From a virus (lineage: Duplodnaviria > Caudoviricetes): a stretch of 39,958 bases of DNA. The notes below the pieces were generated by a model that was not told the origin of the DNA, did not search any database, and saw only the letters and a program-made list of their open reading frames with translations. The stretch spans positions 1 through 39,958 of IMG/VR virus record IMGVR_UViG_3300042906_000754; one strand, 5' to 3'. The first letter of the stretch is position 1; each line of letters begins with the position of its first letter. The position numbers and the translations under genes are program-made. Of the stretch, positions 1-21,802 are shown piece by piece.

Positions 1-127
1 CCTGTGTTTCATGGCACATCAAAAGAATTCAATGTCTTTAAGCCAAACGCAGCGCAAGGCTGGGGAGAAGGAGTTTACTTTGCTTCAGACAAACCTGTTG
101 CAAAAGAGTTTGGAGGCAGAGTCGTTT
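1..127. repeat. Terminal direct repeat (127 bp, copy 1); circular-assembly overlap
   Basis: 1-127 (cctgtgtttcatggc...ggcagagtcgttt) is identical to 39832-39958. It lies inside a continuous ORF and 127 is a common assembler k-mer size. Confidence 0.95.
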
Positions 128-1671
128 CTGCGTTCCTAAAAATTGACAAGCCCTTTACTGGGTCATTTTCACAGGCAGACGAGGCAAAGATTCCTCAGAC
201 AAAAACCTACCAAAACGCACTTAAGAAATACGAAAAGGTTTCTAGGTTTGTTGATCCGGAAACCAAGGAATTGGACTGGTTTGAGCTACAGGCAGAAGAT
301 GGTCAGTTTGCAAACTCGCTCATAAGAGATCTGGGATACGATGGGATCATTTCAAAAGATTCCGCAAATGTTCAGACCGGAGATGAGATCGTTGTGTTTA
401 ACCCGAGCCAGGTTAAATCAGCCGCTCCAATCGTTTACGACGATCAAAATCAAATAATTCCTCCCTCCCGCAGGTTTAACGTAGCTTCTGCTGACATCCG
501 CTTCTCCCCGCGGCGCAAAGGCGAAACACTTCAAGAGCAAAGAGCACGCGAGTACCAAGAGGAACTCATCCGTGTTGGTCTTGGCCGTGAAGGCGGCAAT
601 GTGATAGGCGACGATGCCACTCACGTTGAGGAGATTGTCACTGCTCGCAACCAACTCGTCCGCGAGGAAACGCCGACTTTTGCCGGCAAACTTGGCGACC
701 CTGAACTTGAGCGCCGGCTCGACGTTTCTACGGCTGTGCAAGAAGCTGCGGCAGCAAGGGAAGCCGTCAGCAAAAAAGTCAGCAAAGCCCAACGGATTCG
801 CAAGCAACTGCAAGCCAGGCAGGCCGATATTCAAAGGGCTGTTGCTGCAAAAGCCGCTTCCGGAGAGCTTGGCCCGGTTGAGGTTGGCAGCCCGCAGCAC
901 AAAAAAATGTTTGAGCTCAAGACGCTTGAAGACCTGCCTGGAGGCACCTCGGGCCGTGTGCCGCCAACCCAGCCCAGCTTCACTCTGGAGCAATTCCGCA
1001 GGGCGATTGGAAACGCTTACGTCGAAGAGTTTCCGACACCGGCGGAGGTGCCACCTGCTGTCACCGACCTCATCTCGCAGAAGACTCCTCGCACCGAGAT
1101 TGAGCGCCGCAATGAACTGGCGCGTATCGCTGAAACAGAACGCCGCGCCGGTATCACGCATCGCACTGTGCTAGGCAGCATCCAGTCTGACGCTGCCAAC
1201 GCAGCTCGAGTTGGCGACATGAAGATCGAGCAGATGCTCAAGGCCATGTCCGAGAAACGTGAGGCTATGTTTGACGCGGAGCTTGCACGGGTGCGGAACA
1301 AATTCAACACCATGGAACTGCAAGGCAAGGCCGAGGAGGCCCGGCAGGCTGGCATTGATCCTGAGATCGTCCGCCTCCGGAACGAACACTTTGCCAACGT
1401 GCAGCGCCAGATTGCCCAGGCTGCCGAACCGGCGCCGCTCAACAGTGGGACGCCAGAGCCACCGGCACAGACACAGCTTCCCGGCATTGCCACTGCTGCT
1501 GATGACGCCCGTATCCCGCGGGACATTGCAATCCAGTACAGCCGTGGCAAGTTCCGGATCTGGTCCATCGGCCGACAGGCTGTGCAGGCCGTTACGGAGA
1601 CCTACCAAGAGGCGCTCAAAAAAGCGCAAGCCATTCAACTCAAACGCAGAGGAAAACAAAATGCCGCTTAA
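1..1671 (+). CDS. C-terminal part of the giant polyvalent/ejection protein (continues from 35773); ADP-ribosyltransferase-like (ART-PolyVal type) domain plus coiled-coil tail
   Basis: Same frame as the ORF from 35773 across the overlap. Motifs FHGT...GVYFAS...GYDGII...EIVVFNPSQVKS fit the ART H/Y/E pattern. Confidence 0.8.
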   Translation, partial: PVFHGTSKEFNVFKPNAAQGWGEGVYFASDKPVAKEFGGRVVSAFLKIDKPFTGSFSQADEAKIPQTKTYQNALKKYEKVSRFVDPETKELDWFELQAEDGQFANSLIRDLGYDGIISKDSANVQTGDEIVVFNPSQVKSAAPIVYDDQNQIIPPSRRFNVASADIRFSPRRKGETLQEQRAREYQEELIRVGLGREGGNVIGDDATHVEEIVTARNQLVREETPTFAGKLGDPELERRLDVSTAVQEAAAAREAVSKKVSKAQRIRKQLQARQADIQRAVAAKAASGELGPVEVGSPQHKKMFELKTLEDLPGGTSGRVPPTQPSFTLEQFRRAIGNAYVEEFPTPAEVPPAVTDLISQKTPRTEIERRNELARIAETERRAGITHRTVLGSIQSDAANAARVGDMKIEQMLKAMSEKREAMFDAELARVRNKFNTMELQGKAEEARQAGIDPEIVRLRNEHFANVQRQIAQAAEPAPLNSGTPEPPAQTQLPGIATAADDARIPRDIAIQYSRGKFRIWSIGRQAVQAVTETYQEALKKAQAIQLKRRGKQNAA

Positions 1672-1911: not shown

Positions 1912-2583
1912 ATGAAAGTAGCAAAAATAGCTGATATTCAGAACCTTGCCGACGGCAGCGTCATCGGCGAGATGTCCTTCCAGATCGCCAAGGCGTTTCC
2001 GCCCAAGGTGGGTGAAGGCAAGTTTGGGCAGTGGCGCGTCCAAAACTGCATCATCAAGGACTCAACCGGTGAGGCCCGTGCCAGCTTCTGGCTGAACGAG
2101 GACATGAACGAGTTCGTCGGCCAGACCATCACGGTCAAGTCCCAAGGGGGCGCCAAGGGTCTTCAGGGCATCACGGTGAGCTTCTCAAAGCACGCCGGAG
2201 TCAACGAGCTCAAGATCACTGATAAGGCGGCACTGCTTGATGGGGCTGCCGGCGCCTTCCGTCAGGCCGAGACTGCCACCAAGGTCAACGCTGCCCTCGC
2301 CAGTGGCCAGAGCGGCGGCACTGTGGCGGATGCCAAGCGCCTCATCTTCCAGCGTGCTCAGCTCTACGTTGAATGTGCCAAGGCGGCCAAGTGGGTGGCA
2401 GATCAGGCCGGCATCACGGACGCCGAAGGACTCCAGGCCGTCCGTGCTAGTCTGTTCATCTCCGCGGACAAGGCCAATCTCTGGAACGTCTTCCCGGCTA
2501 CTGCGGCCAAGCCGGCTCCCGTTGTGGACGAGATCCCGATGGCAGACGACGTTGACGAGTTCACCAAGGAGGCTGGCTGGTGA
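1912..2583 (+). CDS. OB-fold single-stranded DNA-binding protein (RPA-like)
   Basis: IIKDSTGEARASFW resembles the RPA-type OB strand D.TG.....W; acidic tail DEIPMADDVDEF...W; first gene of replication block. Confidence 0.6.
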   Translation: MKVAKIADIQNLADGSVIGEMSFQIAKAFPPKVGEGKFGQWRVQNCIIKDSTGEARASFWLNEDMNEFVGQTITVKSQGGAKGLQGITVSFSKHAGVNELKITDKAALLDGAAGAFRQAETATKVNAALASGQSGGTVADAKRLIFQRAQLYVECAKAAKWVADQAGITDAEGLQAVRASLFISADKANLWNVFPATAAKPAPVVDEIPMADDVDEFTKEAGW

Positions 2584-2921
2584 ACAACCGCGCCAAGGGT
2601 GTCCGCGGTGAGCGTCTCTGGCGCGATGAACTCCGGGCTGCTGGCTTCACCGCAAGGCGGGGTCAGCAGTTTGCCGGGGGCGCAGACAGCCCGGACGTGA
2701 TCTGCGAGGAGCTTGCCGGACTTCACTTTGAAGTGAAGTGTGTGCAGGCCCTCAACCTTGACGGTGCCATCGACCAAGCCAAGCGAGACGCTGGCACACT
2801 CAAGGACTGGGTCGTTGCTCACAAGAAGGACCGGAAGCCCTGGCGCATCACAATGAGCAGCGAGTTGTTCTTTAAGCTCCTTCGTGACGGCATGGACGGG
2901 CTCAACAAGCTGCCGAAATAA
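2580..2921 (+). CDS. Holliday junction resolvase, Hjc-like PD-(D/E)XK nuclease
   Basis: KGxRGER, SPDV and HFEVK motifs; 113 aa; GTGA overlap with the upstream gene. Confidence 0.8.
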   Translation: MNNRAKGVRGERLWRDELRAAGFTARRGQQFAGGADSPDVICEELAGLHFEVKCVQALNLDGAIDQAKRDAGTLKDWVVAHKKDRKPWRITMSSELFFKLLRDGMDGLNKLPK

Positions 2922-2925
2922 CTCT

Positions 2926-2986
2926 GGGACGCCAGATCGGGAACGCCGCCAAGAGTCAAGAGGCGTGACAATCAGGAGAGACTGAT
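2926..2986 (+). ncRNA. Structured RNA motif copy A (GGGACGCC...GGCGTGAC-A-ATCAG-GAGAGA-CTGAT)
   Basis: Intergenic. Matches the three copies at 21370-21726 with compensatory changes in both stems. Confidence 0.6.
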
Positions 2987-16827: not shown

Positions 16828-18945
16828 ATGCTCAACACCAACACGGACGTTTTAGCCATTGCGTCAAAGAACCCACATGTTGGGGAGCTCTTGAGCGAGT
16901 ACAATCGGGCGATGATCAACTCTTCCCAAGGGAACCTGATCACCAAGTTCGACAACATCCGGTTCTGCCGGTGGCCCGGGCAGACTGACGACGGCAAAAA
17001 GCACTCCGAGAACCGTTCCGAGGGAGACCCGGCCTGGCCCTTCGAGGGTGCCTCCGATGTCCGCACCCGGTTGATCGACGCTACCTGCAACGAGTTGACC
17101 ACCCTGCTTGTCGGGGCCTTTCAGAAGGCTGAGCTCCGGGCCAACGGGAACGAGTTGTCCGACATGCCGGTCTCCCAGATTGGGACGACTCTTCTTCGCT
17201 GGATCCGGGACTGCAAGATGCCCCAGCAACTCTACAAGGAGGCCACTCTGGCGGCTCAGTATGCCCTTCAGTACGGCTGGAGTGCGTTCTTCGTAGGCTG
17301 GCAGCAGAACATCAGCAAGAGGTCCCAGTCCATCACCATGGACCAAGTCATCGCTCTGGCCCAGCAATCCGGCAGTCCGGTGCTGATGGAGCTTCCGCAG
17401 CTCATAACAGGCGCCCCCGAGCAGGCCGCGGAGATCATGCAGACTGCCCTACCCACGTTGAAGGCCAGTGACGCCAAGCGGATGGTGCGCGAGTTGGCAG
17501 ACACCGGCGTGACCTCGATGGACGAGGAGTACGTCAGCAAGAATTTGCCCGAGATTGTGGCGCTCAAGCCCTGGGATGAGATCATTTTTCCGCCGGAGAC
17601 CGCGGATTTGCAGCGTTCCCGCGTGATTTTCCGTCGTACTTGGATGTCTGAGGTCGAATTGCGTGAAAAAATCACGACTGAAGGCTGGAATCCGGATTGG
17701 GTGGAGCGTGCGTTGCAGCAGTTGGGCAAATCCAGCTCCTACTACAACATCAACCTGCTCCCGACTACCACCATGATGGTTTACAACGGTGTAAACTACA
17801 TGAACATGGTCGAAGTGGTGTACTGCTACACCAAGAGCCTCGACGGCAACGCTCCGGCCATCTACTACACCGTCATCTGCCCTCAGGCAGCCTCAAACCG
17901 GCTCTCAGACGGCGATTCTTGGGCCATCCACGAGCGTTTGGACTACGCCCATGGCGAGTATCCCTTCGTGGAGTTCCGCCGCGAGCAGATCCGCCGGGCG
18001 ATTACCGACACCCGCGGGATCCCGGAGCTCGCCAGCACCGATCAAGACGAAATCAAGGCTCAGCACGACTCCATCCGGGATCACACGGCCTTCTCAACGC
18101 TGCCTCCGATCAAGGTGGTCAAGCGCATCGGCGCCATCAACAAGATCGGCCCAGGCGTGTCCCTGCCGGTTACCAGCCAGAACGACTACACGTTCATGGA
18201 GCCGCCAGCCCGTGAGCCCACCGTGGCGTTCAACCTCATCCAGCGCGTTGAGGCTCAGCATGCAGCCTACTTCGGCACCAACAACGGGAACGTGTCGCCC
18301 ATGACCACCCAGTTCCTTCAGCAGGCACTGGTCAACACATGGCTGCTCTCATGGCGCTCAGTGTTCCGGCAGATGTTCTCGCTGTGCTGCCAGTACATGG
18401 CGCCCGAGGAGATCCAACGAATCACCGGTGGCACACTGCCGCAGAACCTGTCTGAGATCCACAATGAGTTCGACATCAACGTCCGCTTTGACGTGATGAA
18501 TCTGGACAAGGAGTACATCGCCCAGAAGGTGGACTTCCTGACCAAGATCAAGCAGATGGACACCGGTGGCGTGCTTAACGCCAACAGGATCACCGAGATG
18601 CTCATTCAGGCCATCGCTCCGGAGATGGCTTCCGAGCTCATCCTCAACCAAGAGCAGGCATCTCAGAAGATGTTCAAGGACGTACAGACTGACATCGGGA
18701 TGATGCTGCTTGGAAACGAGGCGCTCTACCAAGAGAACGATCCCGCGGCGCAGACGAAACTTCAGTTTGCCCAGCAGGTTATGCAGAGCAATCCCAAGGC
18801 TCAGGCTGCGCTTCAGCAGGACCAAATCTTCCAGCAACTCTTCCAGAACTACGTTAAGAACTTGCAGATGAGCGTCATGCAGCAGCAGAACGCCCAGATC
18901 GGCAGGCTTGGCGTGACACCGATGCAACCGCAGCCCGGACAATGA
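16828..18945 (+). CDS. Portal protein
   Basis: 705 aa directly after TerL; WPFEGASD motif; Q-rich C-terminal coiled coil as in P22-like portals. Confidence 0.8.
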   Translation: MLNTNTDVLAIASKNPHVGELLSEYNRAMINSSQGNLITKFDNIRFCRWPGQTDDGKKHSENRSEGDPAWPFEGASDVRTRLIDATCNELTTLLVGAFQKAELRANGNELSDMPVSQIGTTLLRWIRDCKMPQQLYKEATLAAQYALQYGWSAFFVGWQQNISKRSQSITMDQVIALAQQSGSPVLMELPQLITGAPEQAAEIMQTALPTLKASDAKRMVRELADTGVTSMDEEYVSKNLPEIVALKPWDEIIFPPETADLQRSRVIFRRTWMSEVELREKITTEGWNPDWVERALQQLGKSSSYYNINLLPTTTMMVYNGVNYMNMVEVVYCYTKSLDGNAPAIYYTVICPQAASNRLSDGDSWAIHERLDYAHGEYPFVEFRREQIRRAITDTRGIPELASTDQDEIKAQHDSIRDHTAFSTLPPIKVVKRIGAINKIGPGVSLPVTSQNDYTFMEPPAREPTVAFNLIQRVEAQHAAYFGTNNGNVSPMTTQFLQQALVNTWLLSWRSVFRQMFSLCCQYMAPEEIQRITGGTLPQNLSEIHNEFDINVRFDVMNLDKEYIAQKVDFLTKIKQMDTGGVLNANRITEMLIQAIAPEMASELILNQEQASQKMFKDVQTDIGMMLLGNEALYQENDPAAQTKLQFAQQVMQSNPKAQAALQQDQIFQQLFQNYVKNLQMSVMQQQNAQIGRLGVTPMQPQPGQ

Positions 18946-20275: not shown

Positions 20276-21358
20276 ATGGCTTCTCTAACTGAACCCAATC
20301 TCTCCGGCCGCGGTAAACGCGAAGACCTCATGGACATGATCGCCTTGGTGGACGCCAAGGACACGCCGTTCACGTCCATGGCCAAGAAGGGCTCCAAGCC
20401 CGGCAACATGTACTTCCGCTGGCAGTCTGACAGCTTGCCGACTCCTCAGGTTGGCGGCACGCCGGACGGTCTTGACGTGAACCTCACGACCGGCGTAAGC
20501 AACTACGTTGTTGGCTACCGCTCTGAGCTTTCCAACTACGCGCAGATCTACCGCCGCGCTGTCCGCGTGTCCAAGCTGACGCAGGACATCGCTGACGTGG
20601 CTGGTGTGCGTGATGAGCTGGCTGACAACGTCGCCAAGGCCATCACCGGGATCAAGCGTGACATGGAAGTCACGATGACCTCGAACCAGGTCTCCCAGCT
20701 TGACACCGGCGACCAGACCACTGCGTACCGCACCGCGGGGGCGCAGACCTGGATCAGCAACGCCGGCACCGGCACGCCTACTCCCGGCGACATTCCCTCC
20801 ATCTTCCGCACTCCGACGACCTCGATCGTTGGGACCGGAACTGCGCTGGGAACGTCCCTGACGGACGCGGTTGTGCAGGGCCTGCTCAAGTCGATCTTCG
20901 ACCAGACCGGTCACTACACCAGCTTCGACTGCATCGTCGGGACGGACCTCAAGCGTGCCTTCACCGGCCTGCTGGGGACGACCTCCCTGACGACCACCTC
21001 GACCGTTGGTGTGACTGGCGCCGGGGCAACAAAGGTGCAGACCTTCCAGCGTGACGCGGCCGCGGACACCTACATCCAGAGCTTGGATGTGTTCCAGGGC
21101 GATTTCGGCACGGTGCGCTTGCATCCGACGACCTTTATCGGCACTGTCGGTGGCAGTCCGTTCGTGTGGACGCCCACTCCCTACAAGGGCTTGGTGCTCG
21201 ACATGAACCTCCTCGAAGTCCGTTACGGTGGCAACGTCGCTCAGGTGACTCCGCTCACCGACAACGGCGGTGGCCCCGGCCGCCTCGTTGAGGCTGTTGC
21301 TGGTCTGGTTGTCGGGAACCCGCTGGGTCTCGGCAAGTTTGACTACAACGCGGCCTAG
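20276..21358 (+). CDS. Major capsid protein (SU10/DUF5309-like)
   Basis: REDL.D.I..V...DTPF.S, W..D.L, NY.QI....V.VS, IKRDME; strong codon bias. Confidence 0.85.
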   Translation: MASLTEPNLSGRGKREDLMDMIALVDAKDTPFTSMAKKGSKPGNMYFRWQSDSLPTPQVGGTPDGLDVNLTTGVSNYVVGYRSELSNYAQIYRRAVRVSKLTQDIADVAGVRDELADNVAKAITGIKRDMEVTMTSNQVSQLDTGDQTTAYRTAGAQTWISNAGTGTPTPGDIPSIFRTPTTSIVGTGTALGTSLTDAVVQGLLKSIFDQTGHYTSFDCIVGTDLKRAFTGLLGTTSLTTTSTVGVTGAGATKVQTFQRDAAADTYIQSLDVFQGDFGTVRLHPTTFIGTVGGSPFVWTPTPYKGLVLDMNLLEVRYGGNVAQVTPLTDNGGGPGRLVEAVAGLVVGNPLGLGKFDYNAA

Positions 21359-21369
21359 TAGCTTCCTCC

Positions 21370-21440
21370 GCGACACCTGCGCCGACGCGATTACGGTTGC
21401 GTTTCTTTAAGTGGTGTGACACTCCGGAGAGACGGAGACA
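21370..21440 (+). ncRNA. Structured RNA motif copy B
   Basis: GCGACACCTGC...TGGTGTGAC-A-CTCCG-GAGAGA-CGGAG; internal hairpin ACGCGAT/GTTGCGT. Confidence 0.65.
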
Positions 21441-21562
21441 ATTTGTGCAAGCGAAGGATTTGTAGCAGCCTTGTTTTTAGAGGGAACAAGCTGTGACCCT
21501 TGGGCACAATGAACCTGACAAGGCTAGACGGGAAACCGTTCCTCAAACCGTTGGGTCGCTTT

Positions 21563-21638
21563 GCGACACCTGCCGCTGGCTCCATGCCGGCGCCACCTTA
21601 GCCGGTGGAGTGGTGTGACATACGGAGAGACGGCTACA
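21563..21638 (+). ncRNA. Structured RNA motif copy C
   Basis: GCGACACCTGC...TGGTGTGAC-A-TACG-GAGAGA-CGGCT; internal hairpins GCTGGC/GCCGGC and CCACC/GGTGG; terminal stem weakened. Confidence 0.6.
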
Positions 21639-21643
21639 GAATT

Positions 21644-21726
21644 GCGACACCTGCCTCCCTGTAATGGGGTGCAAGGACCGGGATACTCGGTCGAAGAATG
21701 GTGTGACAGCCGGAGAGACGGCTCCA
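21644..21726 (+). ncRNA. Structured RNA motif copy D
   Basis: GCGACACCTGC...TGGTGTGAC-AGCCG-GAGAGA-CGGCT-CCA; internal hairpin GACCGGG/CTCGGTC; ends 1 nt before the tRNA. Confidence 0.65.
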
Positions 21727-21727
21727 T

Positions 21728-21802
21728 AGCGAGGTAGAGCAGTGGTAGCTCGCCAGTCTCATAAGCTGGAGGCCGAAGGTTCGATTCCTTCCCTTGCAAC
21801 CA
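21728..21802 (+). tRNA. tRNA-Met(CAU), initiator-like, CCA encoded
   Basis: Cloverleaf: acceptor AGCGAGG/CCTTGCA, D GAGC/GCTC, anticodon CCAGT-CTCATAA-GCTGG, T GAAGG-TTCGATT-CCTTC, then ACCA. Confidence 0.92.

What the first reader, a model, noticed from the sequence alone, without database searches (positions are those of the whole stretch)
21370..21726. Four-copy structured RNA motif with covarying stems, three copies stacked directly upstream of a tRNA
Seen: three units between the capsid stop and the tRNA (21370, 21563, 21644) and a fourth 18 kb away (2926-2986) share G(C/G)GAC(A/G)CC-[28-48 nt variable]-GG(T/C)GTGACA-[stem]-GAGAGA-[stem]. The first stem covaries (ACACC/GGTGT versus ACGCC/GGCGT). 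The second covaries freely (CTCCG/CGGAG, AGCCG/CGGCT, ATCAG/CTGAT) around an invariant GGAGAGAC; it is weakened in copy C. The inserts of B-D are unrelated in sequence yet each folds into hairpins. Both loci begin within about 12 nt of a stop codon, and copy D ends in CCA 1 nt before the tRNA. Inference: a selected RNA fold with a conserved core, such as a processing or self-cleaving element, an antiterminator, or a protein-binding decoy released by tRNA processing. I could not match it from memory to hammerhead, twister, pistol, hatchet or HDV/theta cores.
Basis: partly seen in the sequence, partly recalled or inferred. Interest (0 to 1): 0.85.

Follow-up and report, generated by a model that had tools for sequence, protein, structure and literature searches.

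The report
Shuffled RNA-decoy rack behind phage capsid
Four copies of a small motif predicted to fold as a knotted RNA, which matches no Rfam family yet recurs in thousands of phage sequences, lie in this phage, three of them in a reshuffled rack of RNA cassettes behind the capsid gene beside a likely orphan antitoxin RNA, so they are probably cut out as small RNAs that likely soak up a host protein.

Summary
The motif is real and widespread. Four copies occur where about 0.0002 are expected. All three helices covary, and the motif is on the sense strand. No Rfam family matches.

All 50 distinct post-capsid regions of related phages carry 1-4 copies with exchanged inserts. Only 6 of 50 have a tRNA. 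The terminal UGAC-hairpin occurs in over a thousand IMG/VR stretches and in cultured phages. Where a tRNA follows within 400 nt it starts 3-8 nt behind the hairpin in 50 of 71 cases, and three copies alone fill a tRNA-tRNA gap.

The gap between copies B and C holds two more cassettes. One resembles the abiF antitoxin RNA (relatives score 25-28 bits, threshold 37), and no Abi_2 gene was found in the genome.

Best reading (0.4): RNAs released by host RNases that act as protein decoys. Rivals: ribozyme (0.25), end-protector (0.15), antiterminator or translation element (0.12). Transcription and function are untested. Earlier scan notes describe what seems to be this family on other DNA.

The parts
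2580..2921 (+). RusA-like resolvase gene upstream of copy A
   Evidence: PHROG 244, E 9e-16
   Evidence: fold; the same hairpin precedes this subtype in relatives
2939..2986 (+). copy A: P1 2939-2940/2949-2950, P2 2943-2947/2962-2966, GACA 2967-2970, P3 2971-2986 with loop 2976-2981
   Evidence: model R1 52 bits, but this copy is in the model's training set
20276..21358 (+). major capsid protein gene (SU10-type); a second stop follows at 21359-21361
   Evidence: PF17236, E 8e-44
21370..21437 (+). copy B: P1 21370-21371/21379-21380, P2 21373-21377/21413-21417, hairpin insert, GACA, P3 21422-21437
   Evidence: model R1 35-44 bits, not in the training set
21445..21507 (+). cassette M3: separate conserved stem with internal loops, no Rfam match
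   Evidence: in 8 of 50 related arrays; variants
21513..21556 (+). cassette M2: abiF-like RNA (closing stem, AAG, inner hairpin, CUCAAA)
   Evidence: relatives hit RF03085 full length at 24.7-28.0 bits, gathering score 37; the window's own copy does not score; in 8 of 50 arrays
21563..21635 (+). copy C: P2 21566-21570/21612-21616, two-hairpin insert, weak P3 (3 of 5 pairs)
   Evidence: R1 E 0.05
21644..21723 (+). copy D: P2 21647-21651/21700-21704, two-hairpin insert, P3 21708-21723
   Evidence: R1 E 0.0025
21728..21802 (+). tRNA-Met(CAT), 4 nt behind P3 of copy D
   Evidence: ARAGORN, Rfam RF00005

Best explanation
The four units are copies of a phage motif with three covarying helices, predicted to fold as a pseudoknot plus a GARAGA-capped hairpin, that are likely transcribed with the neighbouring genes, likely cut out as small RNAs by host ribonucleases, and would then act in trans as decoys for a still unidentified host RNA-binding protein, probably a defence nuclease or RNA-processing factor.

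Shown: sequence, covariation, strand, copy-number variation, exchange of inserts, spacing to tRNAs, and an abiF-like neighbour with no Abi_2 gene.
Inferred: transcription in the capsid operon (high late dose); release by RNase P where a tRNA follows and by single-strand endonucleases at the AU-rich linkers elsewhere; a binding surface formed by UGAC and the loop at a fixed distance; inserts as peripheral, exchangeable hairpins; the decoy role itself.
For: 1. Dose varies while position does not: 50 of 50 distinct arrays from loci chosen by the capsid protein alone carry 1, 2, 3 or 4 copies (11, 20, 16, 3). In 24 of 193 other loci the loop octamer occurs 2-7 times on one strand.
2. Copies stand alone between two tRNAs in gaps of 50, 53 and 77 nt (L070, L560, phage MD18), with no mRNA to protect or regulate. 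In phage Alexa the next genes lie on the opposite strand.
3. Spacing resembles that of a cluster RNA: 50 of 71 downstream tRNAs within 400 nt start 3-8 nt behind P3 and none at 0-2 nt; 30 of 60 tRNA-tRNA gaps are 15 nt or less.
4. The geometry is fixed like a recognition surface: 85 of 86 hairpins found by their loop alone have YGAC 5, 6 or 8 nt before the loop (20, 64, 1).
5. The same slot holds an abiF-like RNA (5 of 6 loci hit RF03085; 3 of 8 at a stricter cut-off). No Abi_2 gene was found in the window or in 10 other records, 3 of them complete. abiF RNA neutralises its HEPN toxin in trans by direct binding (PMC12373285, passages).
Against: No partner protein was found. No recurring toxin or defence gene lies beside the motif in 45 GTDB loci (118 ORFs; single CBASS-type phospholipase, TIR and DUF5131 hits only), so there is no cognate toxin-antitoxin locus to copy from.
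The hosts span many phyla, which fits a protein-independent function at least as well.
In some phages the module precedes each of two successive tRNAs (L550, L502, L546), and 41 of 92 loci have an ORF start within 40 nt. Both look like cis action.
The abiF hits are below the gathering score, and neither the window's own M2 nor its closest relative L656 scores.
Confidence: 0.4

Rival explanations
1. A new class of small self-cleaving ribozyme, or a dedicated endonuclease site, that cuts polycistronic phage transcripts between genes and ahead of tRNAs, a 5'-side counterpart of theta ribozymes.
For: It has the size, pseudoknot, invariant core and tolerance of peripheral inserts that PMC10085705 (section 17) lists as ribozyme-like. 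It is intergenic and sense, beside Mu gp36, portal, capsid, ParB and replication genes. It is portable across phyla. It is repeated before successive tRNAs. A pistol ribozyme lies about 130 nt downstream in one locus (L032).
Against: The gap to the tRNA is 3-8 nt, not fixed, whereas 77% of theta sites lie within 1 nt (PMC10879173 section 7). In the wider family the 5' helix is often not evident: 5 bp or more in 19 of 98 loci against 9.6 expected, and 33 of 100 against 10.3. That leaves a core of about 21 nt, small for a catalyst. Only one known ribozyme turned up in all the Rfam scans. Tandem copies 5-10 nt apart gain little from several cuts.
Confidence: 0.25
2. A protein-independent end-protector: the compact knot and hairpin block exoribonucleases, so the capsid mRNA (or whichever RNA ends in the module after an RNase P or RNase E-type cut) outlives downstream RNA.
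For: The first ACRCC element starts 12-22 nt from the capsid stop in 48 of 50 arrays. The terminal hairpin closes unrelated 5' domains, such as the PL-leader RNA of mEp390, phiV10 and cdtI. A 3-8-nt tail would remain after an RNase P cut.
Against: Copies alone between two tRNAs have nothing to protect. One copy would suffice. Strict loop and linker sequence is not needed for a simple barrier.
Confidence: 0.15
3. A cis element of transcription or translation: a nut/put-like antitermination or pause site, or a leader element for the next gene.
For: A conserved single strand plus a GNRA-like hairpin recalls boxA-boxB (recalled, not tested). A variant lies in PL leaders of enterobacterial temperate phages. 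Long untranslated regions need protection from Rho (general knowledge). The octamer also overlaps ribosome-binding sites in L405-type prophages.
Against: No likeness to HK022 putL/putR (PMC9378689 passages). mEp390 has two copies on the leftward strand and none on the rightward one. Downstream genes share no function. Some copies have no same-strand gene downstream.
Confidence: 0.12
4. A DNA-level or neutral repeat (recombination site, attC-like cassette end, duplication debris).
For: Cassettes are clearly exchanged between relatives. One contig replaces 21592-21671 with 162 other letters.
Against: G-U outnumbers A-C 68 to 24 in P3. Nearby tRNAs lie on the same strand for 98 copies and on the opposite strand for 0. 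P1 covaries in pseudoknot geometry. No integrase was found among the 33 ORFs scanned.
Confidence: 0.03

Closest known systems
abiF RNA antitoxin (Rfam RF03085; RCd22/AbiF, PMC12373285 passages) - for cassette M2 only
   Same: Same closing stem, AAG and CUCAAA layout; full-length model hits in relatives.
   Different: 6-7 nt longer inner hairpin; below the gathering score; no Abi_2 gene found in the phage. The four-copy motif itself has no likeness to abiF.
Phage RNA decoys: pseudo-ToxI repeats of phage PhiTE and RNA anti-CRISPRs (both recalled; Racrs also named in scan notes e1-9704439 and e1-3408896); type III antitoxins ToxI/CptI (PMC12373285 passages)
   Same: Tandem pseudoknot units whose number varies, carried without a toxin gene, in a slot likely to be strongly expressed late.
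   Different: No Rfam match to any antitoxin or CRISPR repeat; units carry large variable inserts; no cognate system found; far wider host range.
Stable small RNAs of the T4 (rnaC, rnaD) and T5 (RNA I, III, IV, 1, 2, 2H, 3) tRNA clusters
   Same: Small non-tRNA RNAs packed among phage tRNA genes at tRNA-like spacing; function unknown.
   Different: None holds the motif.
Theta (minimal HDV-like) ribozymes (PMC10879173; abstract and section 7 read)
   Same: Small pseudoknotted phage RNAs next to tRNA genes, sense, intergenic.
   Different: Theta lies at tRNA 3' ends at a fixed distance and has a nested double pseudoknot. This motif lies 3-8 nt before tRNA 5' ends and has one knot plus a hairpin.
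Pistol ribozyme (RF02679)
   Same: A hairpin loop pairs with a downstream strand that is followed by a short linker and a hairpin (compared with the pistol in L032).
   Different: No enclosing P2 helix; the conserved letters are in the P3 loop, which is variable in pistol; no Rfam hit.
HK022 put RNA (PMC9378689 passages) and lambda nut (recalled)
   Same: A variant of the motif sits in PL leaders.
   Different: No sequence or structure match to putL/putR; not paired on both early operons.

Membership tests
Any Rfam 15 family (four-copy motif) | covariance-model score at or near the gathering threshold | tested here: not met
   window and related loci: no family hits the motif other than chance-level matches
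abiF RNA RF03085 (cassette M2) | closing stem, AAG and CUCAAA layout as in the model | tested here: met
   alignments; window copy aligned by eye
abiF RNA RF03085 (cassette M2) | score at or above 37 bits | tested here: not met
   24.7-28.0 bits in 5 of 6 loci; no hit for L656 or the window
abiF RNA RF03085 (cassette M2) | adjacent Abi_2/AbiF gene | tested here: not met
   0 of 1 (window) and 0 of 10 records, 7 of them fragments
abiF RNA RF03085 (cassette M2) | binds and neutralises AbiF | not testable with these tools
   needs a bench assay
Type III antitoxin array (ToxI/CptI/TenpI kind) | tandem H-type pseudoknot repeats | tested here: met
Type III antitoxin array (ToxI/CptI/TenpI kind) | terminator and toxin gene directly downstream | tested here: not met
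   no terminator-like site; no recurring toxin neighbour
Theta/HDV-like ribozyme | nested double pseudoknot with catalytic C in J4/2 | tested here: not met
   covariation supports three helices and one knot; no Rfam HDV-like hit
Theta/HDV-like ribozyme | cleavage site abutting a tRNA 3' end | tested here: not met
   upstream tRNA distances are variable, 2 to over 600 nt; the close link is to 5' ends
Hammerhead, including the SGC/CSG/GCS permutations | CUGAnGA, GAAA and cleavage-site blocks | tested here: not met
   no CUGAnGA in the consensus; blocks as defined in PMC10085705 section 13
Self-cleaving ribozyme (any class) | protein-free site-specific cleavage | not testable with these tools
   needs an in vitro assay
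put antiterminator RNA | two-stem put fold, one copy behind each early promoter | tested here: not met
T4/T5 tRNA-cluster stable RNAs | sequence or structure homology | tested here: not met

The most novel reading that the evidence does not exclude
Phages keep a recombining rack of small RNA decoys behind the capsid gene, including orphan abiF-like antitoxins against HEPN abortive-infection nucleases. Its commonest unit, the UGAC-GARAGA module found in phages of many bacterial phyla, neutralises a widespread host defence or RNA-surveillance protein that nobody has yet linked to an RNA ligand.
Probability: 0.3. Interest if true: 0.9.

Novelty: new variant of a known kind. Interest (0 to 1): 0.72.

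Why it matters
It is a 45-nt fold with a 21-nt core, absent from Rfam, present in over a thousand phage sequences and in cultured coliphages, so it can be tested at once. If it is a decoy, it names a new RNA counter-defence and gives the bait to fish out an unknown host factor; the orphan abiF-like neighbour would be an RNA counter-measure against the toxin family linked to the origin of Cas13. If it cleaves itself, it is a new ribozyme class. Either result bears on the old question of what the non-tRNA RNAs in phage tRNA clusters do.

Tried and rejected
Known RNAs that do not match:
- T4 rnaC/rnaD and the T5 stable RNAs do not hold the motif.
- HK022 put does not match.
- The HRIMA motifs do not match: no GGAGAGAC in the one supplement searched.
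- P22 carries a similar hairpin inside the expressed sRNA P22G (PMC13397905 table passages), but model R1 does not score it, so I do not count it as a member or as evidence of expression.
- The PL-leader variants of phiV10 and cdtI score weakly (E 0.14 and 0.74) and are linked only by the pattern match.

Readings rejected:
- tRNA-like CCA end as a general feature.
- An alternative helix between GGYGU and the bases behind P3: no covariation.
- Stop-codon read-through signal: double stops and variable spacing.
- A fifth copy at 18882-18943: E 0.09, inside the portal gene, no P3.

Searches that gave nothing usable:
- My own descriptor scan for hammerhead, pistol and twister found nothing and missed the known pistol in L032, so it is uninformative.
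- Expression: no RNA holder listed; contigs only.
- Host: no genus assigned. An array with the same cassette subtypes lies in a Chthoniobacter bin (L225), but tblastn with five window proteins gave no hit in the GTDB loci.

Literature: searches found no paper describing the motif. The supplement of PMC5737381 could not be read, three files of PMC10690425 were not searched, and PMC4509812 is not held. The motif could be listed in any of these.

Full report
Setting. The window is a complete 39,958-base phage genome with direct terminal repeats. It has terminase, portal and an SU10-type capsid gene at 20276-21358. DNA runs that hold it are from lake and fresh water. Its only tRNA is Met(CAT) at 21728. 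The host is not established.

Observation. GGAGAGAC occurs four times, all on +, each behind GGYGTGAC, against about 0.0002 expected.

Distribution. The pattern GGYGTGACA-N4-GGAGAGAC is held by an estimated 620 IMG/VR stretches, its GAAAGA variant by 34, and both together by about 310 GTDB stretches (chance hits included). Dropping the GGYG part shows a much larger family: one exact 21-mer is in about 1200 stretches and a second stem variant in about 410. Cultured carriers include mEp390, CS01, phiM9, MD18, Pokken, Medea1, Alexa, MinM2, and Vibrio and Gordonia phages. Model R1 scores all 10 of those loci at E below 1e-4; they were picked by similarity to family members.

Structure.
- P3: among 175 distinct hairpins picked by fixed letters only, 533 of 700 cells pair, against 263 of 525 and 309 of 700 with partners slid by one base. 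Mutual information is 0.36-0.96 on the expected pairs and 0.15 or less elsewhere.
- P2: the middle pair follows C with G 107 times and T with A 52 times, of 189.
It forms two Watson-Crick pairs in one of two registers in 58 of 108 distinct contexts, against 18.9 +/- 3.6 in shuffles (0 of 2000 reach it). The shuffle ignores relatedness.
- Alignment A1 was chosen for P2 and P3 pairing, so its 100% values are by construction. Its P1 pairs in 70.8% of cells.
The loop of P1 holds the P2 strand, so the fold is an H-type pseudoknot with a variable loop 3 of 6-81 nt, then UGAC, then P3. G-U exceeds A-C 68 to 24, and nearby tRNAs are on the same strand for 98 of 500 copies and on the other strand for none. 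This supports sense-strand RNA. In the wider family the upstream helix is enriched but often not evident, so the constant core is about 21 nt: UGAC at a fixed 5-6 nt from a GARAGA loop (84 of 86 loop-anchored hairpins; one more at 8 nt). The loop reads as a GNRA tetraloop with two extra bases (inference).

The rack. I fetched 80 loci by the capsid protein alone. Ten were dropped as too short or lacking the stop; the other 70 give 50 distinct post-capsid regions. All 50 carry 1-4 copies and 6 carry a tRNA. Inserts are a shared pool of hairpins in new combinations, with covarying stems. Units are mostly parted by short AU-rich linkers (read). One contig from another sample swaps part of the window's array. 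Two other cassette types sit between copies B and C, each in 8 of 50 arrays. M2 is itself a covarying family: 31 of 97 pattern hits close a stem of 5 bp or more. It aligns end to end with the abiF model in 5 of 6 loci at 24.7-28.0 bits, below the gathering score of 37. The window's copy and its nearest relative do not score. No Abi_2 gene was found in the window or in 10 other records. abiF RNA binds and neutralises a HEPN toxin in cis and in trans (PMC12373285, passages). I therefore read M2 as a likely orphan antitoxin, that is a decoy; this is inferred.

Context elsewhere. Of 71 copies with a tRNA within 400 nt downstream, 50 have it 3-8 nt behind P3 and none closer; tRNA-tRNA gaps in the same loci are of like size. 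Three copies fill a gap of 50-77 nt between two tRNAs with nothing else. Some phages repeat the module before successive tRNAs, and some prophages hold up to 7 loop octamers in 800 nt. Flanking genes share no function, and no toxin gene recurs beside it in 45 GTDB loci.

Mechanism. Shown: a conserved, portable, dose-variable RNA module packed like an RNA gene. Inferred: it is made in bulk with late or tRNA transcripts, trimmed out by host nucleases, and presents UGAC plus the loop to a protein. I put the trans-acting decoy at 0.4, mainly because of the stand-alone copies, the varying dose and the abiF-like neighbour. The chief weaknesses are the missing partner and the cis-looking repeats before tRNAs and start codons. 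A ribozyme or cleavage signal (0.25), an end-protector (0.15) and a transcription or translation element (0.12) remain open.

Known systems. It fails membership of every family tested (Membership tests). It is laid out like tandem pseudoknot antitoxin mimics and RNA anti-CRISPRs (recalled) and placed like the T4/T5 cluster RNAs, without homology to them.

Papers and what I saw: PMC10085705 (abstract, sections 13 and 17, one supplement searched); PMC10879173 (abstract, section 7); PMC5737381, PMC6765202, PMC9378689, PMC12373285, PMC13397905 and 10.64898/2026.09.22.753630 (passages); PMC10690425 (passages, 6 supplement files searched, 3 not). Ten library searches found no description of the motif; unread supplements could hold it. 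Earlier notes of this scan report what appears to be the same family on other DNA; they are leads, not support.

Verdict. Real, widespread and uncatalogued in Rfam; function untested. Among the scan notes I saw, none mentions the 21-nt core family, the reshuffled rack or the orphan abiF-like cassette. Interest 0.72.

Noticed in passing
window 21513-21556; L612, L627, L636, L643, L651, L662, L674 and others: abiF-like RNA cassette (M2) in many phages with no Abi_2 gene found; pattern held by about 470 IMG/VR stretches, about a third with a closing stem. Deserves its own follow-up as an anti-AbiF decoy.
   Followed up: partly
window 21445-21507: Cassette M3, a second uncatalogued covarying RNA with a possible loop-E-like internal loop (label recalled); in 8 of 50 related arrays.
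   Followed up: partly
L278, L031, L073 (M4); L006, L280, L311 (M5): Two further recurring cassette types in the same post-capsid slot, absent from the window.
   Followed up: no
L357:1150-1325, L729, L730: PL-leader RNA of enterobacterial temperate phages ends in a 7-nt-loop variant of the motif; part of this leader matches 1527 of 5426 E. coli genomes.
   Followed up: partly
L405, L416, L424, L444: Prophage operons with 4-7 copies of the loop octamer in 800 nt, some as hairpins and some overlapping ribosome-binding sites.
   Followed up: no
L358:1534-1727 (phage CS01): Unannotated tmRNA-like RNA directly behind the motif (weak Rfam hits).
   Followed up: no
L032:1300-1372 (-): Pistol ribozyme about 130 nt downstream of a copy.
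   Followed up: partly
L607:40290-40310 (P22) and L728 (HK022): Similar hairpin inside the expressed P22 sRNA P22G; the region is shared by 1124 of 5426 E. coli genomes; not scored by model R1.
   Followed up: partly
window 4-1671 and the genome end: ADP-ribosyltransferase (ART-PolyVal) domain at the genome junction, typical of polyvalent phage proteins.
   Followed up: no
window, gene starts: Most gene starts lack a Shine-Dalgarno sequence; an array with the same cassette subtypes lies in a Chthoniobacter bin (L225), a weak hint at a Verrucomicrobiota host.
   Followed up: partly
L363:1989-2060: A tRNA-Gly annotated on the opposite strand in a Vibrio phage record lies on the motif's strand by Rfam.
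   Followed up: no
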